A stretch of 64,000 bases of DNA from an uncultured Dehalococcoidia bacterium (GCA_964508175.1 CAZDRU010000043.1:1843-65842); one strand, 5' to 3'; shown: positions 7,219 through 22,286, counted from the stretch's first letter. A program made the numbers and translations. Notes: a model not told the origin generated them from the letters alone.

Positions 7219-7968
7219 ATGATTAAAAAAAATGTTTTAATTACAGGTGCTGGTAGTGGGATAGGACAGGCTACTGCAAAACTTTTTGCTGAAAATGGAT
7301 TTACTGTCATTTTAGTTGGACGTAATGTAGATAAATTAAAACATACAGAAACGTTGGTGAAAGATAATGGAGGTAAAGGGTTTATTTTCCCATGTGATCT
7401 TACTGATCTTGAAGCTACAAAGTCTTTGGTTGAATTTACTTTGGACAAGGTTGGGAAAATTGATATATTAATTAATAATGCTGGTGCTAGCAGTCAAAAT
7501 CGAACTACATTAAAAACAACTGAATTTGAAGCTAGAAATATGGTTGATCTTAATTTATTAGCTCCATTTTTTTTATGCCAATATATAGTTCCAACAATGC
7601 TTAAGCAAAATCAAGGAACAATAATAAATATCGCTTCTTTGTCTGGTATATCTATAGGTTTGATAGGAGGACCTATGTATTCTGCGGTTAAAGCAGGACT
7701 AATACATTTTTCTAAATATCTTAATGCGGAATTTGTTAATACAGGTTTGAGAGTTTCGTGTATTATTCCTGGAGAAGTTGATACTGATGCAATTAATAAA
7801 AGACCCATAAAACCTAGTAAAGATTCACTAGCTACTATGTTACAACCGGAAGATTTGGCGAAAACTATTTTTACTATTGCTACATCTGAAGATCGAATTT
7901 TATTTGAAGAAGTAGTTATCACCCCAAGATTCCGACGTGATATGTCGAATGAAATTGTTTCTTCTTAA
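7219..7968 (+). CDS. SDR family oxidoreductase
   Basis: TGAGSGIG, NNAG, YSAVK; start moved from 7171 to ATG 7219 (AGGAG SD). Confidence 0.9.
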   Translation: MIKKNVLITGAGSGIGQATAKLFAENGFTVILVGRNVDKLKHTETLVKDNGGKGFIFPCDLTDLEATKSLVEFTLDKVGKIDILINNAGASSQNRTTLKTTEFEARNMVDLNLLAPFFLCQYIVPTMLKQNQGTIINIASLSGISIGLIGGPMYSAVKAGLIHFSKYLNAEFVNTGLRVSCIIPGEVDTDAINKRPIKPSKDSLATMLQPEDLAKTIFTIATSEDRILFEEVVITPRFRRDMSNEIVSS

Positions 7969-8041
7969 AAGTTTTTAATTGATAGAAATATATTTTTAAT
8001 TTAGACTAATATTTATTATAAATAATCTAGGAGAATTACAA

Positions 8042-9202
8042 ATGGTTTTACCTAAGAGAATGAAATTTGGAACGTTTCTTGCCCCATTTCATAAATTAGG
8101 AGAAAATCCAACTTTGGGATTAGAACGAGATTTAGAATTGGTGCAATGGTTGGATTATCTTGGTTTTGATGAAGCTTTTATTGGAGAACATCATAGTGCT
8201 GGGTGGGAAACAATTTCATCTCCTGAATTATTTATTGCGTCTGTTGCCGAACGAACTCGACATATAAAATTAGGAACAGGAGTTATGAGTCTTCCTTATC
8301 ATAATCCTTTAATGGCTGTTAATAGGATGATCCAACTTGATCATATTACTAGAGGACGAGTAATGTTAGGAGTGGGGCCAGGTGCTTTGGCATCTGATGC
8401 ATATATGCTTGGCATTGATCCTCGTCTTCAGCGAAAAAGAATGGAAGAGTCTTTAGATGTCATAATGAAACTTTTATTAAGTAAAGACCCTGTAACTGTT
8501 GAGACAGATTGGTTTAAATTGCAAGAAGCTCGAACCCATCTTTCACCTTATACACAACCTCATTTTCCAATCGTTGTTGCAAATTCACAATCTCCTTCAG
8601 GTATAGCTTTAGCAGGAAAACATGGATTAGGAACTTTATCGTTAAGTGAAATAAATCGTGGAAGTCATGCGAAATCATTATCTAGTTTTTGGACAATTGC
8701 AGAAGAACAAGCTGCAAAACATAATAAAACTGTATCTAGAAATGATTGGAGAATAGTTATTGTTGCTCATTTAGCAGATTCTAAGAAAGAAGCTATTAAA
8801 CAGGCTAGAGAAGGATCAAAATTGTGGCAATACGATTATTTTGAACAAACCATGGGATTTGACCGATCCCATGACTGTAGCCCGGAAGAATATATTGACA
8901 AAATGGTAGATACTGGAGTTTGGGTTATTGGTACGCCTGATGATTTAGTAAAGAAAATTAATGAATTGGATCAAGAATCTGGTGGTTTTGGTGGTTTATT
9001 GGTTATTTCTACAGAATTTGGAAATCGACAACAGGTTATGTATAGTTATGAGCTTTTAGCAAGGTATGTTATGCCGCAATTTCAAGGGTCATTGACCAGT
9101 TTGGAAAATTCTGCTAAATGGACGGCAGAAAAAGCTCCTATGTTGTGGGATTTAAGAAAACAATCATTAAAAATAGCTTCAGAAGATTACAAGAAAAAGT
9201 AA
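8042..9202 (+). CDS. LLM-class flavin-dependent monooxygenase (limonene 1,2-monooxygenase-like)
   Basis: FG.FLAPFH, GEHHSAGWETI, LGTGV.SLPYH, GRVMLGVGPGAL, SYELLARYVMPQFQ. Confidence 0.9.
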   Translation: MVLPKRMKFGTFLAPFHKLGENPTLGLERDLELVQWLDYLGFDEAFIGEHHSAGWETISSPELFIASVAERTRHIKLGTGVMSLPYHNPLMAVNRMIQLDHITRGRVMLGVGPGALASDAYMLGIDPRLQRKRMEESLDVIMKLLLSKDPVTVETDWFKLQEARTHLSPYTQPHFPIVVANSQSPSGIALAGKHGLGTLSLSEINRGSHAKSLSSFWTIAEEQAAKHNKTVSRNDWRIVIVAHLADSKKEAIKQAREGSKLWQYDYFEQTMGFDRSHDCSPEEYIDKMVDTGVWVIGTPDDLVKKINELDQESGGFGGLLVISTEFGNRQQVMYSYELLARYVMPQFQGSLTSLENSAKWTAEKAPMLWDLRKQSLKIASEDYKKK

Positions 9203-9250: not shown

Positions 9251-9955
9251 ATGACCCTGTCTGAAAAGCATAAGTATGTAAAAACTCTTTTTTCTAGAAT
9301 ATCTCATAGATATGATTTCATGAATTCTATGATGACTCTTGGTTTACATAATAAATGGAGGCGAATTGCTGCTGTTTTAGCTTCTGATTCTCCTATTGGC
9401 AAAGCTCTTGATGTTGCTACTGGAACTGGAGATATGGCATTTGAGCTTGCAGCTTTTGAGAATTTTAATGAGATTGTTGGAGTTGATTTTGTTCCAGAAA
9501 TGATTCAACTTGCTAAACAAAAGAACACTAAATTGAAAATTGGTAAAAAAATGAAATTTTTAGAAGCTGATGCAGAAGCTTTACCGTTTAATGATAATGA
9601 ATTTATTTGCGTGACTTCTAGTTTTAATTTAAGAAATGTTTCAGATTTAAAAGTAGCTTTAAGTGAAATGATTCGAGTTTTAAAACCTGGAGGAAAATTT
9701 ATCACATTAGATATTCTTCTTTTACATAATATTTTTTTACGAACATTTTTCCGTTTATATTTTAATTTCATTGTTCCTATACTTGGTGCATTATTTGCAC
9801 GAGATAGAGCTGCTTATACATATTTGCCTAGTTCTGTTGATGCTTTTTTAACCCCTGATGAATTATCTAAAATTCTTAAGGAATTAGGATTACGGAATGT
9901 GGGTTATAAAGCGCTAGGATTAGGGACTCCTGTGATTCATTTTGGAGAGAAATAG
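9251..9955 (+). CDS. menG: demethylmenaquinone methyltransferase MenG/UbiE
   Basis: YDFMN..M.LGLH..W, LDVATGTGD, LRNV, RVLKPGG, AYTYLP.S; converges on the men operon. Confidence 0.9.
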   Translation: MTLSEKHKYVKTLFSRISHRYDFMNSMMTLGLHNKWRRIAAVLASDSPIGKALDVATGTGDMAFELAAFENFNEIVGVDFVPEMIQLAKQKNTKLKIGKKMKFLEADAEALPFNDNEFICVTSSFNLRNVSDLKVALSEMIRVLKPGGKFITLDILLLHNIFLRTFFRLYFNFIVPILGALFARDRAAYTYLPSSVDAFLTPDELSKILKELGLRNVGYKALGLGTPVIHFGEK

Positions 9956-9969
9956 TTTACAGTATTGGT

Positions 9970-10383
9970 CTATTTTTCAAGAGATTTTATAATTATAGGA
10001 AGTGTGGTGCTACGTCCAGTTTGCATATCTATTGCACAGATTATTACTCTTCCTTTTGCTGCTAATTCATTATTTTCGAAATGAACATTAAATTGCAATG
10101 TGATTGATTTATTTCCTAATTTTTCGATAGAGGTTCTTATTTGAAGTAAGTTATCATGTTGTATGGGTATTTTGTAATCACATTCAACATGAACTCTTGG
10201 CAAATCAATGCCTTGTTCCTTTAGACTTTTATAGGTTATTCCATTAGTTCTAAAGAAAGCTGCTTCAGCTATTTCAAAGTAGCGTAAAACGGCTGTATAA
10301 TGAATTCTTCCTGATGCATCCGTATCTGCCCAATGAACTCTTTGATTAGATAAAAAAACATTTTTATTTTCAAGATTATTCAT
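9970..10383 (-). CDS. hotdog acyl-CoA thioesterase (4HBT/YbgC-like), likely DHNA-CoA thioesterase
   Basis: RV.WADTDASGRIHY...YFE motif; last gene of the men operon. Confidence 0.75.
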   Translation of the reverse strand: MNNLENKNVFLSNQRVHWADTDASGRIHYTAVLRYFEIAEAAFFRTNGITYKSLKEQGIDLPRVHVECDYKIPIQHDNLLQIRTSIEKLGNKSITLQFNVHFENNELAAKGRVIICAIDMQTGRSTTLPIIIKSLEK

Positions 10384-10423
10384 AATGTTAATTGTTAAAA
10401 CTAATTTTGGTCTTTCTATATTG

Positions 10424-11329
10424 TCAGGTTATTACGTTATTTACAAGTAATCCTAATAAAATAAATATTCCAAATACAGTATGGAATATTGCAGAATTTT
10501 TTAACATTTTAAAATAATCTTGATGAGTTGTAGCTTTCCATATATTACGTATATTAATGATTGCCATAGGGATTGTTATTATAGTTATTAGCGTTGTTTG
10601 TGATAAATTTAATAGGATTATTCCTATCATCAAGAAAATGTAGGGACTGATTATTATAATAAAGTAGCAATATTTACCAAAAAGTTGCCCTAATATTGTA
10701 ATAGGAGTGATTTTTTTTGCAGTAATATCTTCTTTATAATCTCTTAGATCATTGGCTATTAATATTATTGTTGCTGTACTACCTGAACATAAAGAAAGAA
10801 TAATTCCTTTAGACGAAATTGCGTTAGTTAAAGTAAATTCTGTTCCTAAAGTTAATATAGGTCCCATGAATAAAAACACTAGAGGCCAGCCAAAACCTTT
10901 ATTTCCAATAGAAAGAGGTTTTCCGGCATAGTTGTAAGCAACAAAAACACTAATAATACAAATTGCTAAGATGATTAATCCATTTGTAGAAGTAATAATG
11001 AAATATAATCCAATAATTGTTGCAAAACTAAATGATATAAGTGCCGCTATTTTAACTGTTTTTGCAGTAAAAATTCCTAAACTTATGACTTTATATGTAG
11101 GTAACGTAGACACATTTCTTTTGTATATAGTTTCATCACTATATTCGTCTACTAAATTAGTGCCAATTTGTACAGCTGTTGCTGCTAATAATATAAGTAT
11201 TGTGTGAAACAGGTAAATACTATTCCAATGTAAATTTATTACACTTCCAAGAAGAACGGGAATTAATGATGCCCCTAATGTAAAAGGTCTTGATGCTTGA
11301 ATCCAATATTGTAATTGATTTTTTACCAT
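10424..11329 (-). CDS. menA: 1,4-dihydroxy-2-naphthoate prenyltransferase MenA
   Basis: [29 protein letters not shown]...KKIT; multiple TM helices; overlaps the menB stop. Confidence 0.85.
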
Positions 11330-12123
11330 GGATAATTTCTGTATTTTGAAAAATCAGGATTTCTTTTTTCTAGAAATGCATTTTTCCCTTCTTTTGCTTC
11401 TTCAGTATTGTAATAAAGTGAAGTTGCCCCATGTGCAATGTTTTGTATTCCGTATACATGATCAGTATCAGCATTAAATGCATGTTTTAAGAATCGTAAA
11501 GCAGTAGGACTCTTATCAAGTAGTTCTTTTCCCCATTTGATAACTTCTTGTTTTAAATCTTTAACAGGAACTACACAATTAACAAGGCCCATTTTTTCTG
11601 CTTCTTTTGCTGAATATCGTCGACATAAGTACCATATTTCGCGAGCTTTTTTTTCTCCAACTATTCTTGCAAGATAAATAGAACCAAATCCAGCATCAAA
11701 ACTTCCAAATTTTGGACCGATTTGTCCAAATTTTGCCCTTGTTGATGCTATTGTTATATCACATAAAACATGAAGTACATGACCTCCTCCAATTGCATAT
11801 CCATCTACCATGGCAATAACAGGTTTAGGTATTTCACGAATCATTCTGTGTAGTGATGTTATTTGTAATTTATTTTCTCCACTTGAGTCACTGTATCCAG
11901 TGTCCGTTCTAGTTTTGACATCTCCTCCTGTACAAAAATTTCCTTTTGTTCCTGTGAGTACAATTACCCCAATTTTGTCATCATTCCAAGCTAATTCAAA
12001 CGCTTCAATTAATTCATCTAATGTTGTTGGTCGGAAAGCATTTAATACTTCTGGACGATTAATAGCGATGAAACTAATGCCTTCTTTATTAGTTATTTCG
12101 ATGTCATGATATTGTTTTTTCAT
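11323..12123 (-). CDS. menB: 1,4-dihydroxy-2-naphthoyl-CoA synthase MenB
   Basis: [55 protein letters not shown]. Confidence 0.95.
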
Positions 12124-12153
12124 AATATTTCTCCTAATTTTAATATGAGTATT

Positions 12154-13344
12154 TTAAATAATTTTATTTTTTTTCAATTGTGAGAAAGTTTCTTTATTGA
12201 TATTTAATTCAGAAGTTATTATTTCTTCTGTGGATTCTCCTAAAAGAGGTGCTTTCGCTTGAGGTCCAGACTTATATCCCTTAATTTTAAAAGGAGTATT
12301 TACGAATGTGTTTTTTGATGTATTATTTTTATTTAAGTTTATAAGTATATTTCTGTGGAGTACTTGCTTATCTTTAGTTATTTCATCTATGGTATTAGTT
12401 TTACTACAGGCTATGTTCAATTTATGGAATTTTTTTATCCAATAATTTGCTGATTTTTTGGCAATAGCATTTTCCATTATTGGTTTTAATATAGTATAGT
12501 TTTTATTTCTTTTATCGGATGTATTAAAATCTTTGTTTAGGATAAGTGATTCTTCTCCAATTGCCATACAAAAATCAGTCCATAATTTTGAAGAATTTGG
12601 CGTAATTGCTAGTACTATATAATCAGTAGTTGTTTTAAACATTTGAAATGGAACAATACTTGGATGTCTTGCCCCTACTTTTTGTGGTATTTCCCCAGTT
12701 GTTAAAAATCTACTGATTGGATTTTCAAGCATAGTTAATAAACTATCTAACATAGCGATATCTATATTAGTTCCTTTATTAGTAAAATTTCTTTTCCATA
12801 ATGCAGCTAAAATAGCTACTGTAGAAAAAAGACCTGCCACACTATCACCTAGTGAAATGCCTGTTCTAATTGGAGGATCTTCATCGTTTCCAGTGATACT
12901 CATTAATCCACTCATAGCTTGAATTATAATATCAAAAGCAGGAAAATTTTTATAAGGTCCAGTTTGTCCGAATCCTGAAATAGATGCGTAAATAATTTTA
13001 GGATTTATAAGTTTAATTGTTTGATAATCAAGTCCGAAATTTTTCAAATGACCCGGAACATAATTTTCAACTAAAATATCAACATTTGAAGCTAATTTTT
13101 GAGCTAATTTTTGTCCTTCTGGTTTTTTTAAGTTGATGGTTATGCTTTTTTTTCCTCGATTTAAGCTGTTAAAGTACGTGCTTTGCCCTTTTGAATTATC
13201 TATAGATCGAGAAGGGTCTCCGTTGGATGGGTTTTCTATTTTTATTACTGTAGCTCCTAAATCTGCAAGATTCATAGTGCAAAAAGGACCTGCTAGCATA
13301 TGTCCAATTTCGAGTACTTTAATTCCTGATAGAATCGAATTCAT
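12154..13344 (-). CDS. class III CoA-transferase (CaiB/BaiF/Frc family) embedded in the men operon
   Basis: LAGPFC..LADLGA.VIKIE, NRGKKSI, VENY.PG, SISGFGQTGP, catalytic-Asp region GISLGD, APLLGE; GAGGAG SD. Confidence 0.92.
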   Translation of the reverse strand: MNSILSGIKVLEIGHMLAGPFCTMNLADLGATVIKIENPSNGDPSRSIDNSKGQSTYFNSLNRGKKSITINLKKPEGQKLAQKLASNVDILVENYVPGHLKNFGLDYQTIKLINPKIIYASISGFGQTGPYKNFPAFDIIIQAMSGLMSITGNDEDPPIRTGISLGDSVAGLFSTVAILAALWKRNFTNKGTNIDIAMLDSLLTMLENPISRFLTTGEIPQKVGARHPSIVPFQMFKTTTDYIVLAITPNSSKLWTDFCMAIGEESLILNKDFNTSDKRNKNYTILKPIMENAIAKKSANYWIKKFHKLNIACSKTNTIDEITKDKQVLHRNILINLNKNNTSKNTFVNTPFKIKGYKSGPQAKAPLLGESTEEIITSELNINKETFSQLKKNKII

Positions 13345-13364
13345 TTTATTTTTCTCCTCGAAAA

Positions 13365-14177
13365 TTAATTTAATTGATTGATAAAATCGGATACTATTTT
13401 TGTGAATATTTCTGGTTTTTCAAAATGAGTATTATGTCCAGCATCTTGAATGTTCATATATGTGCCGTTTCCTAAATTATTTGACATATTTTTTGCGATT
13501 GTAGAGTATTTAAAATCTTTTTCTCCTGCTATACAAAGACTAGGAATTGATATATTTGAAAGAATATCGTTAAGTGGATATAGAGAACCAGTTCCTATTT
13601 TGCGTAACATATTTGCTAATCCGAAAACGTTATTGCTAAGACGCATATTACGTTGGTCTGTTATTTGACTATTAGATATACTGGTTTGTGTTTGAAAAAT
13701 AGGCAATTTTTCCCAATAATTCACGAACCATTCGATACCCTTTTTTTCGATATTGGTTGCTAATTTTGAATCATTTAATTTTCTTAAATTTCTTTCTTTT
13801 AAATTCGTTATTCCGCTAGTTGTCCCTTCAAAAATTAGAGCTGAACATTTCTTAGGATATTGTTTGGCAAAATGGAGAAGGATTCTTCCTCCCATTGAAT
13901 ATCCAATCCAAATAGCTTTCTTTATTTTATGAGAGTCAGTGATAGTTTTTAAAAGTTTGGTTAAATTTGACATTGAATATTGATTAATATCTAATGGAGA
14001 ATTCGATTTTCCGTGACCTGGTAGATCTATTAAATAACATTTAAATTTTTTTGCAAAAATTGAAGCTACTGTTTTCCAAGATTGAGTTGTTCCTGCAAAT
14101 CCATGGAGAAAATAAATAGGAGTTCCTGCGCCTAATTCTTCGATGTTTATTATGAATTTATTACAAGTTACTAACAT
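13365..14177 (-). CDS. menH: SHCHC synthase MenH (alpha/beta hydrolase)
   Basis: LHGF.G, DLPGHG, GYSMGGR, R..RK..D..LA, GHNTH; follows menD. Start taken at ATG 14177 (track gives 14207). Confidence 0.88.
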   Translation of the reverse strand: MLVTCNKFIINIEELGAGTPIYFLHGFAGTTQSWKTVASIFAKKFKCYLIDLPGHGKSNSPLDINQYSMSNLTKLLKTITDSHKIKKAIWIGYSMGGRILLHFAKQYPKKCSALIFEGTTSGITNLKERNLRKLNDSKLATNIEKKGIEWFVNYWEKLPIFQTQTSISNSQITDQRNMRLSNNVFGLANMLRKIGTGSLYPLNDILSNISIPSLCIAGEKDFKYSTIAKNMSNNLGNGTYMNIQDAGHNTHFEKPEIFTKIVSDFINQLN

Positions 14178-15930
14178 ATGTTTTTTCCATAATTTTTTTA
14201 AATACATTGTTATGAAGTAGGTTGTTTTTTGATATGGTTGACGTTATTTCGATGATTTTTGGCCCTTTTTTAGCGATGAAATTTTGAATGTTTTTAGTGA
14301 ATATTTTTCTCGAAGTTGGATTCCAGTATGGTATTTGAAATAAATTAGCAGCATTTTCAAAAGTTAAATTATGAGGTGTTAGGAAAAGATTTTTGAAGTA
14401 CTTTTTAAATTTTGATTGAGGAAGAAATGAAAAAATTCCTCCACCATTATTATTTAAAATAATTATTGTCAAGTTTGATTGAGTATTCGTACATAGTAAT
14501 AAGCTATTTAGATCGTGTAAGAAAGCTATATCTCCTATTAGTAAAATTACTGGAGATTGTGTTTGTGTTGCAGTTCCTGTTGCACTGCTGATCATTCCAT
14601 CGATGCCACTTGAACCTCTATTGCCTAAAATTTTTATACCTTTTCGTTTAGGGAAAAACATGTCCGTATCTCTTATAGGCATACTATTACTTAGATAGAG
14701 TATTGTTTTTTGAGGGAGTGATTTATGTAAGTCGATGTATATTGAAGGTTCAGATATTACATCTGTTTTTTCAAAGATTTCATTTATTGTATTTAATGTT
14801 TGTATTTGAATATCCTGCCATAATTTTTGCCATATTCTATTTGGTTTATTGTTTTCAGTCTGAAGAAGGTTTAACAAAATTTTTGGATCTTCTTTTATAT
14901 GAAAATTTCCTGAATGATTTGGGTCTGAAAATGAAAAAGGATTTAAGATTATTTGGGTTGTATTTTTCTTGTCATTAAGATATTGCAGAAGTGTTTTTGA
15001 AGTAGGAGTCATTCCTACTCTTATGATTAAGTCTGGTGTTAAAGATTTAGCTAGTGTTTTATTTTTTAGAAAAAGATCATGGTTATCTATAATGTTTGTT
15101 AAATTATGAATTCCAGTTCTTACTTGGGATAATGGATCTGCCAAAATCGGGAATCCAGTTTTTTCTGAAAATAGAATAATGTCTTCAGGGGAAAAACTGT
15201 TATTGTTGGGTCCACAAACGATAATACCTTGAGTAGAAATAGCAAGTGCTTTTTCTAGAATATTTTTTGTAGTATTGTTTGACTGGATAGTATATTTTTG
15301 TTGTGATTCTCTCGTATTTTTTAGTCTTTTTTTTAATTTTTTTATGACTTTCTCAATTTCTGGAGTTTGGTCTTTTTTAATAGTTATTGGATGAAGAGGG
15401 TCATCAAATGGGAAGTTGATATGAATTACTCCTTGAGGATCTTTCATTATGATATTCATGCCATCCAATACTTTTTTGAACATAATTTCTAAGAGTTGAG
15501 GGTTATTTCGAGGTGTAGGAAGATTGATGCTGATTTTCGGATAGATTCCGAAAATATTTGTTTGATCTATTGTTTGTAATGCGCCAGTTCCTTGTAATTC
15601 TGATGGTCGATCAGCAGTGACTATTACTAGAGGTATTTGAGAATAAGTAGATTCAATGATTGAAGGCAGGAAATTACTGGTAGCAGTTCCGGAAGTGCTT
15701 AAAACTACGACTGGATTTTTTGTAATTCGTGCAATTCCAGTGCCAAAAAAACCTGCTCCTCTTTCGTCAATGTGAGTCCATGTTTTTATATTTTGGTTAT
15801 CAAAGAGAGAAATTGCTATAGGTGATGAACGGGATCCTGGACAAATACAAGCATTTTTAACTTGATAATGTTCTAATATATCAACGAATAAATTAGAAAA
15901 AGCGTAATTGATATTTGGGGGTATTTTCAT
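14161..15930 (-). CDS. menD: SEPHCHC synthase MenD
   Basis: PGSRSSP, IDERGAGF, TSGTA..N, TADRP, SNSMPIRD, NRGSSGIDG, GD.AF.HD, NNNGGGIF..LP. Confidence 0.95.
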   Translation of the reverse strand: MKIPPNINYAFSNLFVDILEHYQVKNACICPGSRSSPIAISLFDNQNIKTWTHIDERGAGFFGTGIARITKNPVVVLSTSGTATSNFLPSIIESTYSQIPLVIVTADRPSELQGTGALQTIDQTNIFGIYPKISINLPTPRNNPQLLEIMFKKVLDGMNIIMKDPQGVIHINFPFDDPLHPITIKKDQTPEIEKVIKKLKKRLKNTRESQQKYTIQSNNTTKNILEKALAISTQGIIVCGPNNNSFSPEDIILFSEKTGFPILADPLSQVRTGIHNLTNIIDNHDLFLKNKTLAKSLTPDLIIRVGMTPTSKTLLQYLNDKKNTTQIILNPFSFSDPNHSGNFHIKEDPKILLNLLQTENNKPNRIWQKLWQDIQIQTLNTINEIFEKTDVISEPSIYIDLHKSLPQKTILYLSNSMPIRDTDMFFPKRKGIKILGNRGSSGIDGMISSATGTATQTQSPVILLIGDIAFLHDLNSLLLCTNTQSNLTIIILNNNGGGIFSFLPQSKFKKYFKNLFLTPHNLTFENAANLFQIPYWNPTSRKIFTKNIQNFIAKKGPKIIEITSTISKNNLLHNNVFKKIMEKTYVSNL

Positions 15931-17369
15931 AACGAAATTTTAATTGCGTCAAGAATTGTTTTTAATTTTAATTGAGTTTCATCAAATTCTTGGTCAGGTA
16001 TAGAATTTTTTACGATTCCAGCTCCTGCAAAGAGTGTTGCTGTAATATTTTTAATGAGTGCACTTCGTATAGCTATTACAAAACACCCTTCGTTTAGGTT
16101 GCGAATAATACCAACATTTCCTGAAAACCATCCTCGTGAAAAATTTTCTAAATATTTTATCGTTGTTAAAGCAGATTCTTTTGGTATGCCACAAATTGAT
16201 GGACTATGGTGAAGAGAATCAAGTAAATCAAAAATGGTGACGTTTTTTTTCGATTTTCCTTTTACGAGTGATACTAAATGTTGAATGTGTTGTAATTTTA
16301 TAATGTGAAGTTTTTTTTCGATGTGTAATTTAGTAGTTAAATGTCTTAATTTTTTTAAAATCCATTTGACTACTAAATTATGTTCGTGAAGATTTTTTTC
16401 ATCTTCTAGTAAATTTGTTCGAGAATTTTTATTTAATATTTCTGAATTATCATCGGCGTTTGTTCCTGCGACAATTTTTGATGTTAGATTGTTATTTTCA
16501 AGTTGTAAAACAACTTCTGGTGTAGCTCCAAGAAATTCTTTATTTCCTCGTCTAAAAGAAAAAATAGAGCAACTAGGGTATTTTTTGTCAAGAATTTCTA
16601 AAATATTTGTTGTATTGATCGGAGTTGAAGAGTTATATAATACAGGTCTACATAATACAACTTTCTCAACTTTATTGTTTTCAATCTCATCTAATATTTT
16701 TTTGACTCCACGATTCCATTCTTTTTTAATGAATGTATCTTCTTTTTCTTGAACTGGATTTAATTTTTTTTCTGGAAAGTCTTCTTTTTTAGTATTATTG
16801 ATTAGAGTGTTTTTAATGATTTCTATGCCTTTTGAGATGATTTTTTCAATTGTTTTATTTGCGTTGGTCCCTTTAATTGATATGTTAATAGTTAAAGTTG
16901 TTTTATCGTTTTTATGTTCTATAGTGTATGTTGGCAGTGTTACTAGTCCATTAGGAAAATCATGCCAAATATCTTGTTTGTTTAGTATTTTAGTTTCAAA
17001 ACTGAATCCTGAAAAACATAGAGGATTTGGCTTTTCATTATTTAATCCAAATGAATAAATTGATATCATTGGTTGAATTTTTTTATATTTTTCTTTGATT
17101 TCTATATATGGATTAATTGCGTTTGTTTTTAATTCAATTGTTTTCCCAGCACTACTGATCCAGTTGTTTTCTGACTGATTAGACCAAAAACAACTATAGG
17201 TGCTTAATTTTTTCATGCCATCAATAATTTTCCAAGGATTATTTACTTTAGGTAATGGAGTTATGAATGAAAAAATTTGAGAATTATTTGATTGAGTTGA
17301 AAGGTCTTTTTTTAATTGCGTTATTATTTGATTCTCAAATGAATTCAGTATGTTTATATTATTAGTCAT
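15927..17369 (-). CDS. menF: isochorismate synthase MenF
   Basis: KVVL.R, GATPE, AGT, KN.HEH..VV, IQHL, RGWFSG, IAIRSA, FAGAGIV..S.P..EF.ET..K chorismate-binding motifs. Confidence 0.88.
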   Translation of the reverse strand: MTNNINILNSFENQIITQLKKDLSTQSNNSQIFSFITPLPKVNNPWKIIDGMKKLSTYSCFWSNQSENNWISSAGKTIELKTNAINPYIEIKEKYKKIQPMISIYSFGLNNEKPNPLCFSGFSFETKILNKQDIWHDFPNGLVTLPTYTIEHKNDKTTLTINISIKGTNANKTIEKIISKGIEIIKNTLINNTKKEDFPEKKLNPVQEKEDTFIKKEWNRGVKKILDEIENNKVEKVVLCRPVLYNSSTPINTTNILEILDKKYPSCSIFSFRRGNKEFLGATPEVVLQLENNNLTSKIVAGTNADDNSEILNKNSRTNLLEDEKNLHEHNLVVKWILKKLRHLTTKLHIEKKLHIIKLQHIQHLVSLVKGKSKKNVTIFDLLDSLHHSPSICGIPKESALTTIKYLENFSRGWFSGNVGIIRNLNEGCFVIAIRSALIKNITATLFAGAGIVKNSIPDQEFDETQLKLKTILDAIKISL

Positions 17370-17379
17370 AGCATGTAGT

Positions 17380-17991
17380 TTAAGGGACTAATCCAATTGA
17401 TCTTAGTAATAAATTTCTTAATTCAGGTAATGTTGTTTCTAAAGGAATATTTTTATCGTTATGTATCCAGTTAATTATTATTTCATTAATAGCCCCTAGC
17501 CAAGCATATGCTGTGATTGTAGTGTTTATTTTAGTGATTGAATGATCTTTTATCGCTGTATCCAGATTTATTTTTATGAAATTTGCAAATCTTTCATGAA
17601 TATTAAATATGTGTTCATTAATAATCGGACTTGAAATATTAGAACTAGTTAAAACTAATTTTGTTAAATTTTTATGTTTCGAAATTAAATCAAATAAAGT
17701 GTTTAATGGTGTGTTGATTTGATTAACTATATTTGTTTTTTCGTTAATTTTTTTAATAGTTGCTTGTTCTAATGAGTTGGCTAGCTTATCGATCAAGGAA
17801 CAGAATAAATTTTCCTTGCTAGGAAAATGAAAGTATATAGATCCTTTTGAAGTGCCAGATTTTTCTGCAATTTTATCCATGCTTGTTTTATGGTACCCAT
17901 CTTTAGCGAAGATATTTTCAGCTGTATTGAGTATTATTTTTTTCGTTAATGATTTATTACGACGTTTTGGTTGTTGTAATATTTTTTTCAT
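17380..17991 (-). CDS. TetR/AcrR family transcriptional regulator heading the men operon
   Basis: N-terminal HTH (F...GY..TS...IA..SG.SKGSIY.HF.SKE.LF); 10 bp upstream of menF. Confidence 0.92.
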   Translation of the reverse strand: MKKILQQPKRRNKSLTKKIILNTAENIFAKDGYHKTSMDKIAEKSGTSKGSIYFHFPSKENLFCSLIDKLANSLEQATIKKINEKTNIVNQINTPLNTLFDLISKHKNLTKLVLTSSNISSPIINEHIFNIHERFANFIKINLDTAIKDHSITKINTTITAYAWLGAINEIIINWIHNDKNIPLETTLPELRNLLLRSIGLVP

Positions 17992-19271: not shown

Positions 19272-20150
19272 TTAAGAAGTAGTAGTTTCTTTAACAAATT
19301 TTTTAATTATATTTACTAGTTCTTCTGGTTTATGTAATGGTATGTCATGTAATGTTTCTTCCATAGTTGTTATTGAATAATTAGGAAAAATTTTCATTTG
19401 AGGAAATATTTTTTCTTTCATGAATTCGAATCCTAAATGTACTTCAGATTCAATATTATTACGTTTAGCTTCAATTATTTTTGTTGGAATATTAACTTTA
19501 GAAAAAAGATCGGAAGGGTGATGGTTATAAAGATTTTTGAGTATTTTCAAGTGATTGTTAATTGTTAATTTCCGAGTAACATAATTTTTTTCATCAATTA
19601 TAAAACTATTTTTTCTTATAGATTTGGTTTTCTCATTCCAATTTAAAGAAATATTTGTGGGTTCATTTTTTTCCATTTTTAATACTAATTCATCCCATTT
19701 CAATTTTGATACATCGGGGGGAGTGAGAAATTTTTTAATTAAAGGCCAATTTATTCCAGGGATAGCCGTAAATTCAATGAACCCTCCATCTATTAGAATT
19801 AATTGTTTTACATTTTTAAATTTACTTGCATAATCTAGTGCAAGATTACCTCCCCAAGAATGACCTATAAGAATAAAATTACTTAATCCTAGCATTTCTA
19901 TACAATGATTTATGTCTTTAATTATTGTATGAAAATCATATCCAGTATTTGGTTTAGACGTATTTCCATGTCCTCTCAAGTCAATCGCATAACATGAGAA
20001 AGAATCAATAAGTTTGGGGCATATTAAGTCCCAAATCATTGATGTTGATGATAATCCATGAAGGAGTACAATAGCTGGTTTAGGACCTTTCCAATAGCGA
20101 CATTCGAATAATAATTTATCGAATACAATAGTTTTAATTTCTGGAGCCAT
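19272..20150 (-). CDS. alpha/beta fold hydrolase
   Basis: LLHGL, DLRGHG, GHSWGG nucleophile elbow, C-terminal His (LHDIP). Confidence 0.88.
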   Translation of the reverse strand: MAPEIKTIVFDKLLFECRYWKGPKPAIVLLHGLSSTSMIWDLICPKLIDSFSCYAIDLRGHGNTSKPNTGYDFHTIIKDINHCIEMLGLSNFILIGHSWGGNLALDYASKFKNVKQLILIDGGFIEFTAIPGINWPLIKKFLTPPDVSKLKWDELVLKMEKNEPTNISLNWNEKTKSIRKNSFIIDEKNYVTRKLTINNHLKILKNLYNHHPSDLFSKVNIPTKIIEAKRNNIESEVHLGFEFMKEKIFPQMKIFPNYSITTMEETLHDIPLHKPEELVNIIKKFVKETTTS

Positions 20151-20277
20151 CTAATTAATCCATATTTACATAAAATTACTGGGTATATGTTTATTGTACT
20201 AGGTAAATTTATAAAATAAAAAAACTTTTTTTATTTTATAATGCTAAGTAAATTTTGTAATTAAGGACTTTTTATTT

Positions 20278-21060
20278 ATGGATGAAATTTTTACTAGAAA
20301 AAGTAGCAATATTACAACCATTGTATTGAATGCCCCAGAACGTAGAAACGCTTTAAATTATGAAATGTGGAAAGAATTTGCAGTTATTTTAGACAAAGTT
20401 AAAAGGGATAAAAGCACAAGAGTATTGATAATTCGAGGTTCTGGTGATTTAGCGTTTTCTTCTGGTGCGGATATTAATGAATTTGAAAAAATTAGAGCTA
20501 ATGCTATTCAAGCTAAGAAATATAATATTGTTGTAGAGAAAGCAATAACAGATCTCGAATGTTTTCCTATTCCTACAATATCTATGATAGATGGTGATTG
20601 TATAGGAGGAGGATGTGAATTGTCTTTGGCAACTGATATTAGAATTGCATCATATAAAAGTAGGTTTGGAATACCAGCTGCCAAGCTTGGCATAGCAATA
20701 GGCTATCAAGAACTTAAATTGCTTGTATCATTAGTAGGCATAGCTAATGCAAAACTTATACTTTTTTCAGGGAATCTTTTTTCTGCTGAAGAAGCATACC
20801 GTATGGGATTATTAACTTTACTTGTAGATTCCACTGAATTGGAACAATATACTTATCAATTAAGTGAATCTATTGCTAAATTAGCGCCATTATCACATCA
20901 GACCCACAAAGAACTGTTTCGTTTATTGTTTTCTAAGATTGAAGGTTCTGTATTGGCTAATAAAAAAGAATTTTTATTTTCAATTTTTGATAGTAAAGAT
21001 TATTTTCGTGGAATTGAAGCATTCAAAAAGAAAACAAAGCCTAATTTTATAGGAGATTAA
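20278..21060 (+). CDS. enoyl-CoA hydratase/isomerase (crotonase) family protein
   Basis: RRNAL, AFSSGADI, CIGGGCEL...DIRIA, FGIPAAKLG, KP.F.G. Confidence 0.9.
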   Translation: MDEIFTRKSSNITTIVLNAPERRNALNYEMWKEFAVILDKVKRDKSTRVLIIRGSGDLAFSSGADINEFEKIRANAIQAKKYNIVVEKAITDLECFPIPTISMIDGDCIGGGCELSLATDIRIASYKSRFGIPAAKLGIAIGYQELKLLVSLVGIANAKLILFSGNLFSAEEAYRMGLLTLLVDSTELEQYTYQLSESIAKLAPLSHQTHKELFRLLFSKIEGSVLANKKEFLFSIFDSKDYFRGIEAFKKKTKPNFIGD

Positions 21061-21068
21061 ATACTATC

Positions 21069-22286
21069 TTGAATTTTAAAAAGCAAAGAAAAAATAAAGG
21101 TCCTTTATCTGACATGAAAATTCTTGATTGTACTCAGGTTATGGCTGGTCCATTTTGTACTATGTTACTTGCTGACATGGGAGCTACAGTTGTTAAAATA
21201 GAAAATCCTGATGGAGGAGACCCCATGCGTACTCATGGCCCAGAATATTTTAAAAATGGCACAGCTGCATTTTTGGCATTGAATCGTAATAAGAATAGTT
21301 TAGCGATAGATTTAAAAACTATTCAAGGCAAGAGAATATTTAAAAAATTAGTGAAAGAATTTGATGTTATCGTAGAGAATTTTAAGCCAAGTACTATGGA
21401 TAACTTAGGTTTAGGATATGAAGTATTAAAAAAAATTAATAGAAGATTAATTTATTGTTCTATTTCTGGTTTTGGTTCTTCAGGTCCTTATAAAAATCGA
21501 CCAGGATTTGATTTAATAGCTCAGGGAATGAGTGGAGTAATGAGTTTTACTGGATTAGAAGATGGCACATTAGTTAAAGTAGGCGTTCCCTTAGGAGATT
21601 TGAATTCTGGTCTCTATGGTTCTTACGGTATTCTTTCTGCCTATATAAATTTATTAAGAACAGGAAAAGGTCAATTTGTTGATACTTCACTTTTGGATGC
21701 AAGTATAGCATCTACATTTTGGCAAGCAGCAGTATATTTTTCTACAAGTGAAATCCCAAGACCTTTAGGGACCAAACATCCACTTACTGCTCCTTATCAA
21801 GTTTTTAGAACAAAAGATGATTATATTGTTATTGGTGGCGCATCTCAACGAGCTTGGGAATCACTTTGTGTTGCTTTAGATTGTTTAAAATTAATTGATG
21901 ATAAAAGATTTAATACGAGTAAAAGAAGAAAAGATAATGAAAATGTATTGGCAAAAATATTACAAGATATTTTTACTAAAAAAACTACTAATGTTTGGTT
22001 AAAGATATTAGACAAAAATCATGTGCCTGTAGGTCCTATTTATAGTTTAGATCAAGTTTTTAATGATCCTCATGTTCAAGCACGAGAAATGGTAATAAAT
22101 TTAGAAGATTTAGAAGGTAATAAAATTAAGCATATTGGATTGCCTGTAAAACTTTCAGATACACCAGGAAATATATCTTATATAGCCCCAAAATTAGGTG
22201 AGCATTCTAAGGATATTTTGTTAGAATATGGATTCTCTGAATTGGATATTTCAAAATTTATTTCAAAAAATATAATTAAAGTATAG
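21069..22286 (+). CDS. class III CoA-transferase (CaiB/BaiF family)
   Basis: MAGPFC, LNRNKNS, VENFKP, SISGFG..GP, VPLGD, APKLGEH; TTG start 8 bp after the crotonase. Confidence 0.92.
   Translation: MNFKKQRKNKGPLSDMKILDCTQVMAGPFCTMLLADMGATVVKIENPDGGDPMRTHGPEYFKNGTAAFLALNRNKNSLAIDLKTIQGKRIFKKLVKEFDVIVENFKPSTMDNLGLGYEVLKKINRRLIYCSISGFGSSGPYKNRPGFDLIAQGMSGVMSFTGLEDGTLVKVGVPLGDLNSGLYGSYGILSAYINLLRTGKGQFVDTSLLDASIASTFWQAAVYFSTSEIPRPLGTKHPLTAPYQVFRTKDDYIVIGGASQRAWESLCVALDCLKLIDDKRFNTSKRRKDNENVLAKILQDIFTKKTTNVWLKILDKNHVPVGPIYSLDQVFNDPHVQAREMVINLEDLEGNKIKHIGLPVKLSDTPGNISYIAPKLGEHSKDILLEYGFSELDISKFISKNIIKV

What the first reader, a model, noticed from the sequence alone, without database searches (positions are those of the whole stretch)
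9970..17369. Menaquinone operon with a class III CoA-transferase in place of menE, and no menC
Seen: the co-directional operon menF-menD-menH-[CaiB/BaiF CoA-transferase, 12154-13344]-menB-menA-thioesterase, with overlaps or gaps of 40 bp or less. The transferase has its own GAGGAG SD, an intact catalytic-Asp region (GISLGD), and sits between menH and menB. menG is adjacent. No enolase-superfamily MenC or ANL-family MenE occurs anywhere in the 64 kb. Established: between MenH (SHCHC) and MenB (which needs OSB-CoA) the classical pathway requires MenC dehydration and ATP-dependent MenE ligation. Inference: the transferase may make OSB-CoA without ATP, using succinyl-CoA or recycling CoA from DHNA-CoA. 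That would be a non-orthologous displacement of MenE and an energy-saving variant of vitamin K2 synthesis.
Basis: partly seen in the sequence, partly recalled or inferred. Interest (0 to 1): 0.75.

Follow-up and report, generated by a model that had tools for sequence, protein, structure and literature searches.

The report
CoA-transferase replacing MenE in menaquinone operon
In some uncultured marine bacteria the vitamin K2 (menaquinone) gene cluster carries a CoA-transferase where relatives carry the ATP-using enzyme MenE, so it probably makes the same CoA intermediate without ATP; I found no paper describing this, and it can be tested at the bench.

Summary
The operon is real: TetR-menF-menD-menH-[class III CoA-transferase]-menB-menA-thioesterase on the minus strand, with menG convergent. 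"No menC" holds only for the window. The genome has an o-succinylbenzoate synthase over its curated cut-off on another contig.

The transferase idea survives testing. Sampled relatives yielded 18 genomes with a transferase of one clade (D167-S168...F352 signature). In 17 it lies directly upstream of menB; the 18th contig ends there. Ten of these were found by a profile built without them, and all ten sit in the slot.

None of the 18 has a MenE orthologue (best 397 bits, against 607 for a held-out true MenE). In two of them the only ANL enzyme was shown to be acetate-CoA ligase. Twelve sister operons end in menC-menE and lack the transferase.

The closest solved relative is the promiscuous succinyl-CoA:dicarboxylate transferase SUGCT.

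Against: three complete operons have neither enzyme, and one of them lost the transferase within a genus that otherwise has it.

This is a probable non-orthologous displacement of MenE, with no biochemistry yet. Six literature searches found no paper proposing it.

The parts
17380..17991 (-). TetR-family regulator, first gene of the cluster
   Evidence: PF00440, 63 bits. A TetR homologue heads the men operon in both MenE-type and CoAT-type relatives.
15927..17369 (-). menF, isochorismate synthase
   Evidence: TIGR00543, 281.3 bits, cut-off 224.75.
14161..15930 (-). menD, SEPHCHC synthase
   Evidence: TIGR00173, 403.2 bits, cut-off 244.2.
13365..14207 (-). menH, SHCHC synthase (alpha/beta hydrolase)
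   Evidence: TIGR03695, 248.9 bits, cut-off 208.55.
13354..13359 (-). Shine-Dalgarno GAGGAG of the transferase gene
   Evidence: Read directly from the sequence, nine bases before the ATG at 13344.
12154..13344 (-). Class III (CaiB/BaiF) CoA-transferase of the men-linked clade; proposed OSB CoA-transferase
   Evidence: PF02515, 373.9 bits, full length. No NCBIfam equivalog is reached (best NF052585, 297 bits, cut-off 750). The same operon slot is occupied in 17 other genomes. It falls in the men-linked clade, SH-aLRT 100.
12841..12846 (-). Codons of catalytic Asp167 and clade-specific Ser168
   Evidence: D167 is invariant and aligns with the Asp of the SUGCT motif. S168 is present in 8 of 8 men-linked transferases and 0 of 37 sister-clade transferases. 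It is also present in 10 of 10 further clade members.
11323..12123 (-). menB, DHNA-CoA synthase
   Evidence: NF005637, 400.6 bits, cut-off 380; TIGR01929, 372.9 bits, cut-off 342.7.
10424..11329 (-). menA, DHNA prenyltransferase (UbiA family)
   Evidence: PF01040, 46 bits, cut-off 34.2. TIGR00751 scores 98.7, just under its cut-off of 102.15. A MenA homologue follows menB in relatives.
9970..10383 (-). Hotdog (YbgC/FadM, 4HBT) thioesterase; probable DHNA-CoA thioesterase by context
   Evidence: TIGR00051, 74.8 bits, cut-off 68.7. MenI_Staph scores only 48 bits against a cut-off of 225. A 47%-identical homologue ends the operon of G006.
9251..9955 (+). menG/ubiE, demethylmenaquinone methyltransferase, convergent with the operon
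   Evidence: TIGR01934, 227.2 bits, cut-off 158.35.

Best explanation
The 396-residue class III CoA-transferase at 12154-13344 is a dedicated menaquinone-pathway enzyme. It makes o-succinylbenzoyl-CoA (OSB-CoA), the substrate of MenB, by moving CoA from an existing thioester onto the aliphatic carboxylate of OSB. It thereby replaces the ATP-dependent ligase MenE.

The proposed pathway in this genome is as follows.
- MenF, MenD and MenH from the operon make SHCHC.
- MenC, encoded on contig C19, makes OSB.
- The transferase makes OSB-CoA.
- MenB makes DHNA-CoA.
- The operon's hotdog thioesterase releases DHNA.
- MenA and MenG finish the quinone.

The most likely CoA donor is succinyl-CoA. DHNA-CoA as donor, which would recycle CoA within the pathway, is possible but less favoured because a thioesterase is kept in the operon.

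Shown here: the gene content, the conserved slot, the clade, and the failure to find MenE. Inferred: the substrate, the donor and the chemistry.
For: 1. Conserved slot. In samples of relatives, a transferase of this type was found in 18 genomes, counting the window's own.
- In 17 it lies immediately upstream of menB and downstream of menH (with or without menC). The 18th contig ends at the gene.
- Ten of the 18 were found by a profile that did not include them, and all 10 sit in the slot.
- A 92-99% identical metagenome contig repeats the whole window operon.

2. One clade. Once 46-50% identical intermediates are added, the window protein and the 7 men-linked proteins in that tree fall in one clade, SH-aLRT 100, apart from 36 other class III transferases.
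- All 18 rows of that clade carry Ser168 next to the catalytic Asp167, and Phe352.
- 0 of 37 sister-clade proteins carry Ser168.

3. Complementarity with MenE.
- Twelve related operons end in menC-menE and lack the transferase. Their MenB proteins, with those of two menB-menA loci, form their own 14-row clade (99/starred).
- A profile of 11 operon MenEs scores a held-out true MenE at 607 bits. The best hit in any of the 18 transferase genomes is 397 bits.
- The 370-397-bit hits look like one paralogue group. A 387-bit hit of this kind also occurs beside true MenE in G046.
- Three members of that group, and every other ANL protein tested from 6 genomes, fall outside the MenE clade (97, starred).
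- G006 (one contig, 96% complete) and G017 each have a single AMP-binding gene in the whole genome. In both it is acetate-CoA ligase (NF003313, 882 and 904 bits, cut-off 729).

4. Chemistry. The closest solved relative is human SUGCT (375 bits, E 3.7e-111, full length). It is a promiscuous dicarboxyl-CoA:dicarboxylate transferase that uses succinyl-CoA and has a large open active site (passages of PMC10871334).

5. The gene is intact. It has its own GAGGAG site and the catalytic Asp.
Against: There is no biochemical or expression evidence.

Three genomes (G038, G060, G125) have a complete F-D-H-C-B-A operon but neither a MenE orthologue nor a men-type transferase. Some other way of making OSB-CoA must therefore exist in this group.
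- G038 belongs to a genus in which 3 other sampled species carry the transferase. The gene can apparently be lost while the rest of the operon stays.

The window protein itself is very divergent.
- It is 41-45% identical to the other men-linked proteins.
- When left out of the profiles it scores 473 bits on the men-type profile against 499 on the sister-clade profile.
- A careful tree without the intermediates placed it outside the clade. The AU test did not reject monophyly (p 0.26).

The window's genome is only 85.65% complete. It holds a 503-residue ANL ligase of unknown substrate on contig C23.

ADP-forming acyl-CoA synthetase-like genes occur in G006, G017 and G365.

Only the top 4 to 9 candidates per genome were scored in the census searches.
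Confidence: 0.68

Rival explanations
1. The transferase works at the other end of the CoA-bound stretch. It takes CoA off DHNA-CoA onto succinate or acetate, replacing or supplementing the thioesterase. OSB would then be activated by some other enzyme.
For: - Its position next to menB fits a role with either the substrate or the product of MenB.
- No homologue of the window's thioesterase was seen in the operons of G017, G028, G083 or G365 (tblastn at E 1e-8).
- Three complete operons manage without either MenE or the transferase, so another OSB activator exists in the group.
Against: - This does not explain why the transferase and MenE are mutually exclusive: 0 of 18 against 12 of 12.
- G006 and G017 have no ANL enzyme other than acetate-CoA ligase.
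- The window and G006 keep a thioesterase in the same operon.
Confidence: 0.12
2. MenE activity is supplied by a non-orthologous ATP-dependent enzyme, and the transferase is a passenger from the large catabolic CaiB/BaiF expansion of this group with no role in quinone synthesis. Candidates are the C23 ANL ligase in this genome, the conserved 370-397-bit ANL paralogue, acetate-CoA ligase, or an ADP-forming acyl-CoA synthetase.
For: - Relatives carry many class III transferases; up to 46 matches in one genome. The literature reads these as catabolic (passages of PMC5395668).
- A generic ANL ligase exists in G000.
- ATP-grasp_5 hits of 159-303 bits occur in G006, G017 and G365.
- G038 lacks the transferase but keeps the operon.
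Against: - A passenger would not keep one slot in 18 genomes of at least 9 families, or form its own clade with an active-site signature.
- No single alternative enzyme is shared by all transferase genomes. G006 and G017 lack the ANL paralogue. G000 and G028 lack strong ATP-grasp_5 hits.
Confidence: 0.1
3. In this particular genome a normal menE exists in the unassembled 14%, and the transferase is redundant.
For: Completeness is 85.65% in 49 contigs.
Against: - Relatives with the same operon that are 96% complete (G006 on a single contig, G146, G365, G870, G930) also lack MenE.
- In MenE-type relatives the gene sits in the operon. The window's operon is contiguous and has no such gene.
Confidence: 0.05

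Closest known systems
MenE, o-succinylbenzoate-CoA ligase (ANL superfamily) of the classical menaquinone pathway
   Same: The proposed product (OSB-CoA) and the pathway step are the same. The gene is part of a men operon. It is mutually exclusive with MenE across the related operons examined.
   Different: The fold and mechanism are unrelated. It has no AMP-binding domain; PF02515 is its only Pfam match. It would use a thioester donor rather than ATP. The gene lies between menH/menC and menB rather than after menC at the operon's end.
SUGCT / C7orf10, succinyl-CoA:glutarate (dicarboxylate) CoA-transferase; PDB 9br6 and 9br7
   Same: It is the best solved match, full length at 375 bits, with the catalytic Asp aligned. 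It is a class III enzyme with a succinyl-CoA donor, dicarboxylate acceptors and a large promiscuous pocket (passages of PMC10871334).
   Different: The window protein does not reach the NCBIfam succinate-glutarate equivalog (297 bits, cut-off 750). It carries Ser, not Leu, after the catalytic Asp. Its genomic context is biosynthetic, not catabolic.
Succinyl-CoA:(R)-benzylsuccinate CoA-transferase BbsEF; PDB 9fn0
   Same: It is a class III enzyme. From recall, it loads CoA from succinyl-CoA onto an aryl-substituted C4 dicarboxylate, which makes it a chemical precedent for OSB as acceptor. The sequence match is 205 and 181 bits.
   Different: It is a much more distant relative and a two-subunit enzyme of anaerobic toluene catabolism.
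Widespread sister clade of class III transferases in the same bacterial class, function unknown
   Same: 41-46% identical and of the same length.
   Different: It is not next to men genes (35 of 39 loci). It occurs in families without MenB: f51 has the transferase in 25 of 25 genomes and MenB in 0 of 25. It has Ile, Met or Leu at position 168.

Membership tests
Class III (CaiB/BaiF) CoA-transferase, PF02515 | Full-length match to the family profile | tested here: met
   373.9 bits, residues 5-372 against profile positions 1-366 of 366.
Class III (CaiB/BaiF) CoA-transferase, PF02515 | Catalytic aspartate that forms the acyl-anhydride intermediate | tested here: met
   D167 is invariant in 8 of 8 men-linked proteins. 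It aligns with the Asp of SUGCT's motif. The SUGCT paper calls its residue catalytic Asp212; I did not check the numbering offset.
Class III (CaiB/BaiF) CoA-transferase, PF02515 | Interlocked homodimer with the active site at the interface | not tested
   No structure or complex was predicted.
Succinate-glutarate CoA-transferase equivalog NF052585, and the other named class III equivalogs | Score over the curated cut-off | tested here: not met
   NF052585 scores 297 against 750. YfdE-type NF008511 scores 279 against 522. The mesaconate type scores 267 against 700.
MenE, OSB-CoA ligase (TIGR01923, ANL superfamily) | AMP-binding domain and a score over the cut-off | tested here: not met
   The transferase has no PF00501 match. 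The best ANL protein in the genome scores 227.5 against 330.15. It falls outside the operon-MenE clade.
Classical (OSB) menaquinone pathway | MenF, MenD, MenH and MenB over their curated cut-offs | tested here: met
   Scores and cut-offs are 281/224.75, 403/244.2, 248.9/208.55 and 372.9/342.7.
Classical (OSB) menaquinone pathway | MenC, o-succinylbenzoate synthase | tested here: met
   It is not in the window. Contig C19:2557-3516 scores 261 bits on TIGR01928, cut-off 200.65. From recall, this family also holds N-succinylamino-acid racemases.
Classical (OSB) menaquinone pathway | MenA and MenG | tested here: inconclusive
   MenG is over its cut-off (227/158). MenA is a UbiA-family protein, but TIGR00751 scores 98.7 against a cut-off of 102.15.
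Men-linked CoA-transferase clade (defined here) | Placement in the clade, the D-S...F signature, and the slot upstream of menB | tested here: met
   Clade support is SH-aLRT 100 with intermediates added. The signature is in 18 of 18 clade rows. The slot is shown. Without intermediates the placement was unstable.

The most novel reading that the evidence does not exclude
A distinct family of class III CoA-transferases, marked by Ser after the catalytic Asp, is the OSB-activating enzyme of an ATP-independent variant of the classical menaquinone pathway in marine Chloroflexota. It was recruited from the group's large pool of catabolic CaiB/BaiF paralogues. Complete men operons with neither this enzyme nor MenE point to at least one further unknown way of making OSB-CoA.
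Probability: 0.6. Interest if true: 0.72.

Novelty: new variant of a known kind. Interest (0 to 1): 0.64.

Why it matters
From recall, the classical menaquinone pathway is treated as fully assigned, and MenE is pursued as an antibacterial target. A different enzyme class at this step would show that the step can be done without ATP. It would correct pathway calls that score these abundant ocean bacteria as menE-negative or incomplete. It would also give the first biosynthetic role to one of the many CaiB/BaiF paralogues of this group, which are usually read as catabolic (PMC5395668, passages). The claim can be tested directly with one recombinant protein and commercially available or easily made substrates.

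Tried and rejected
- **RNA evidence.** No RNA holder was listed for the operon, so nothing can be said about expression or co-transcription.
- **Named genomes and metagenomes.** Of 80 named-genome loci with 38-45% identical transferases, 0 had a men gene at 35% identity or more nearby. Of 80 metagenome loci, only the 98% identical one (L210) was men-linked. These scans used patterns from the window protein and mostly reached unrelated clades.
- **TIGR01923 cut-off as a MenE test.** 0 of 41 genomes of the order pass it, including those with an operon menE at 301 bits. The cut-off is too strict for this group, so I replaced it with a profile of 11 operon MenEs.
- **Percent identity as an orthology test.** Non-men paralogues are as similar to the window protein (41-46%) as the men-linked ones.
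- **First trees.** These were unstable for the window protein because of long-branch and composition effects (30% GC against 58-69%). It joined the clade with support 59 when other long rows were removed. It sat outside the clade in the careful tree. The AU test gave p 0.26.
- **Genomes with menB-menA only.** G164, G272, G360, G012 and G258 looked like counter-examples. They lack MenD (0 of 5) and so have no complete pathway.
- **Flanks of the three operons with neither enzyme.** Pfam scans of 35 ORFs gave no candidate activator. The only hint was a distant class III transferase two genes upstream of the G060 operon.
- **561-residue ORF in G028.** It lies between the transferase and menB and has no Pfam or NCBIfam match.
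- **Literature.** Six full-text searches found no paper proposing a CoA-transferase for OSB activation in bacteria. PMC6189191 (passages) only speculates that low-specificity peroxisomal CoA transferases activated OSB early in plant evolution. Subscription journals are not covered.
- **Not run.** I ran no structure prediction, fold search or complex prediction.


Full report
**What is in the window**

On the minus strand, eight co-directional ORFs run from 17991 to 9970. They are, in order:
- a TetR regulator;
- MenF (TIGR00543, 281 bits, cut-off 224.75);
- MenD (TIGR00173, 403/244.2);
- MenH (TIGR03695, 248.9/208.55);
- a 396-residue class III CoA-transferase (PF02515, 373.9 bits, full length);
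- MenB (TIGR01929, 372.9/342.7);
- a UbiA-family MenA (TIGR00751, 98.7 bits, just under its cut-off of 102.15);
- a YbgC/FadM-type hotdog thioesterase (TIGR00051, 74.8/68.7).

UbiE/MenG (9251-9955, plus strand) is convergent with the operon.

The transferase has GAGGAG nine bases before its ATG. It reaches no named NCBIfam equivalog; the best is the succinate-glutarate type at 297 bits against a cut-off of 750.

Contigs from other public runs bridge both of its junctions without differences. All 4 runs laid bridge menB/CoAT, and 2 of 4 bridge CoAT/menH. A 7.3-kb metagenome contig repeats the whole order at 92-99% protein identity. The arrangement is therefore not an assembly artefact.

The window's genome (G000) has 1.25 Mb in 49 contigs and is 85.65% complete. 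It encodes an o-succinylbenzoate synthase on contig C19 (261 bits on TIGR01928, cut-off 200.65), between an MFS transporter and a 5'-3' exonuclease gene. "No menC" therefore holds only for the 64-kb window.

The best ANL ligase in the genome is on C23 (503 residues). It scores 227.5 on the MenE model against a cut-off of 330.15. It sits beside MocA/XdhC-type genes, and its best family matches are generic acyl-CoA or malonyl-CoA synthetase models, none over cut-off.

**Is the transferase tied to the pathway?**

Earlier notes of this scan call the organism a marine Dehalococcoidia/Chloroflexota bacterium. I did not verify that label. The many class III transferases in relatives (up to 46 matches in one genome) agree with what is reported for SAR202 (PMC5395668, passages).

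I examined 53 MenB neighbourhoods. These were the window, all 12 other genomes with a MenB match in the order sample, and 40 of the 190 genomes with a match in the class sample. I chose the 40 as all same-order hits plus about one or two per family. Three operon types appear.

- **Type A (12 genomes).** TetR-menF-D-H-B-(A)-menC-menE, all co-directional.
- **Type B (8 genomes, counting the window).** TetR-menF-D-H-[menC on the opposite strand]-CoAT-menB-menA. The window lacks the inverted menC there.
- **Neither enzyme (3 genomes).** G038 and G060 have the type B layout without the transferase. G125 has F-D-H-B-A-menC without menE.

The remaining 30 loci show menB, with or without menA, and no other men gene in the stretch fetched. 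Five such genomes were tested and all lack MenD (0 of 5), so they do not have a complete pathway.

**Census with a profile of the 8 type B transferases (A2), at E 1e-176 or better**

- 5 of 401 genomes in the class sample.
- 2 of 401 in the phylum sample, both of the window's order.
- 15 of 201 in a denser sample of the order.

Ten of those 15 were new, so they give an independent test. Nine have menH-[menC reversed]-CoAT-menB-menA. The tenth is cut by a contig end, with the inverted menC on its other side.

In all, 18 genomes of at least 9 families carry the transferase, and in 17 it is seen directly upstream of menB. Only the 4 to 9 best first-look candidates per genome were scored in these census searches.

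**Orthology**

The other men-linked transferases form a firm clade. Support was SH-aLRT 100 for the first four. Leave-one-out profile scores for the seven were 644-706 bits, against 556-584 on the sister-clade profile.

The window protein is a long, AT-biased branch, and its first placements were unstable.
- It joined the clade with support 59 when other long rows were removed.
- It sat outside the clade in a careful tree.
- When left out of the profiles, it scored 473 bits on the men-type profile against 499 on the sister profile.
- The AU test did not reject monophyly (p 0.26).

Adding 46-50% identical proteins from the large protein collection broke the long branch. The window protein, 10 new proteins and the 7 men-linked ones then form one clade with SH-aLRT 100. 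The other 36 rows are separate.

All 18 clade rows share Ser168, directly after the catalytic Asp167, and Phe352. In the sister clade, 0 of 37 have Ser168; they have Ile, Met or Leu. The genomic context of the new proteins could not be looked up.

**Is MenE really missing?**

The curated MenE cut-off is too strict for this group. 0 of 41 genomes of the order pass it, including G035, whose operon menE scores 301 bits. I therefore built a profile from 11 operon-linked MenEs (A1).

- A held-out operon MenE (G046) scores 607 bits.
- The best hits in the 18 transferase genomes range from no hit (G042, only 54% complete) to 397 bits.
- The 370-397-bit hits look like one conserved paralogue group. 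A 387-bit hit of this kind also occurs beside true MenE in G046.
- In a tree, the 11 operon MenEs form a clade (97, starred). Three members of that paralogue group fall outside it, as do all other ANL proteins tested from G000, G006, G017, G028, G038 and G012.
- G006 (one contig, 96% complete) and G017 each have exactly one AMP-binding gene in the genome. In both it is acetate-CoA ligase (882 and 904 bits on NF003313, cut-off 729).
- Three further f7 genomes with the transferase and G893 have best hits of only 183-189 bits, about the score of the G006 acetate-CoA ligase (189.6). I did not annotate those hits. The fifth, G870, has a 309.5-bit hit.

Conversely, only 5 of the 401 genomes in the class-level A2 census had a men-type transferase, and none of those 5 is a type A genome. 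The type A genomes came from the same class sample.

The MenB proteins of the 12 type A operons form a clade of their own (99, starred; 14 rows including two menB-menA loci). The type B MenB proteins lie outside it.

**How it most likely works**

The closest solved relative is human SUGCT (375 bits, E 3.7e-111, aligned end to end, catalytic Asp aligned). It is described as a promiscuous dicarboxyl-CoA:dicarboxylic acid transferase that uses succinyl-CoA and has a large open active site (PMC10871334, passages).

OSB is a dicarboxylate whose 4-oxobutanoate arm is the carboxylate that MenE activates (recalled). A succinyl-CoA:OSB CoA-transferase is therefore a small chemical step from known family members. 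Benzylsuccinate CoA-transferase (205 and 181 bits) is a recalled precedent for an aryl-substituted acceptor.

I favour succinyl-CoA as donor because the window and G006 keep a thioesterase at the operon's end. This suggests that DHNA-CoA is hydrolysed rather than recycled. DHNA-CoA as donor is not excluded.

The energy argument is weak. Compared with ATP going to AMP and PPi, spending succinyl-CoA saves about one ATP equivalent per quinone. This is inference from textbook stoichiometry.

**What speaks against it**

- G038, G060 and G125 have complete operons but no MenE orthologue (387 bits or less) and no men-type transferase. Their best transferases, where present, score like the sister clade at 539-549 bits.
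- G038 is in the same genus as three species that do carry the transferase. The gene can therefore be lost with the operon otherwise intact. Either the pathway is dying there or another activator exists.
- Pfam scans of 35 flanking ORFs gave no candidate. The only hint was a distant class III transferase two genes upstream of the G060 operon.
- ADP-forming acyl-CoA-synthetase-like genes are present in G006, G017 and G365, but only weak hits occur in G000 and G028. They are not a consistent alternative.
- No RNA run holds the locus.

**Novelty**

Six full-text searches found no report of a CoA-transferase acting on OSB in bacteria or replacing MenE. One paper only speculates about low-specificity peroxisomal CoA transferases activating OSB early in plant evolution (PMC6189191, passages). 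The library lacks most subscription journals.

I rate this as a new variant of a known pathway: a probable non-orthologous displacement supported by gene order, phylogeny and complementary distribution, and not yet by any assay.

Noticed in passing
window 19272-22256: A separate small CoA cluster: an alpha/beta hydrolase (minus strand), a crotonase at about 20311-21048, and a second class III CoA-transferase at 21105-22256 (39% identical to the men one; PF02515, 420 bits). These two are the only class III transferases found in this genome by tblastn at E 1e-6.
   Followed up: partly
L103 5571-6734, L104 about 7294-8463, L106 about 7611-8708, L107 10944-12164, L183, L197, L294-L302: In the transferase-type operons of relatives, and in two operons without it, menC (TIGR01927 type, just over its cut-off) lies on the opposite strand between menH and the transferase or menB. 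The window lacks it there and instead has a TIGR01928-type menC on contig C19.
   Followed up: partly
G038 (L107), G060 (L177), G125 (L189): These are complete men operons with neither a MenE orthologue nor a men-type transferase, so OSB activation there is unexplained. G038 is in the same genus as three transferase-bearing species.
   Followed up: partly
G164, G272, G360, G012, G258 (L162, L165, L167, L108, L164): These genomes have a menB-menA pair but no MenD match at E 1e-20 or better (0 of 5). This is a partial pathway of unknown use.
   Followed up: partly
L103 7992-9677 (G028): A 561-residue ORF sits between the transferase and menB and has no Pfam or NCBIfam match. It may be a real unknown gene or a spurious ORF in high-GC DNA.
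   Followed up: no
L177 15229-16440 (G060): A distant class III CoA-transferase (27% identical, PF02515 368 bits) lies two genes upstream of the TetR-menF operon, separated by a TPR protein. This could be an independent recruitment.
   Followed up: no
G046:C1:1876290-1877709 (L174 about 10166-11531): The operon menE matches the MenE profile in two pieces in different frames near its C-terminus. This is either a frameshift or a sequencing error.
   Followed up: no
window 8042-9202: A luciferase-like (LLM class) monooxygenase gene lies next to menG. It belongs to a family reported as expanded in SAR202 (PMC5395668, passages).
   Followed up: no
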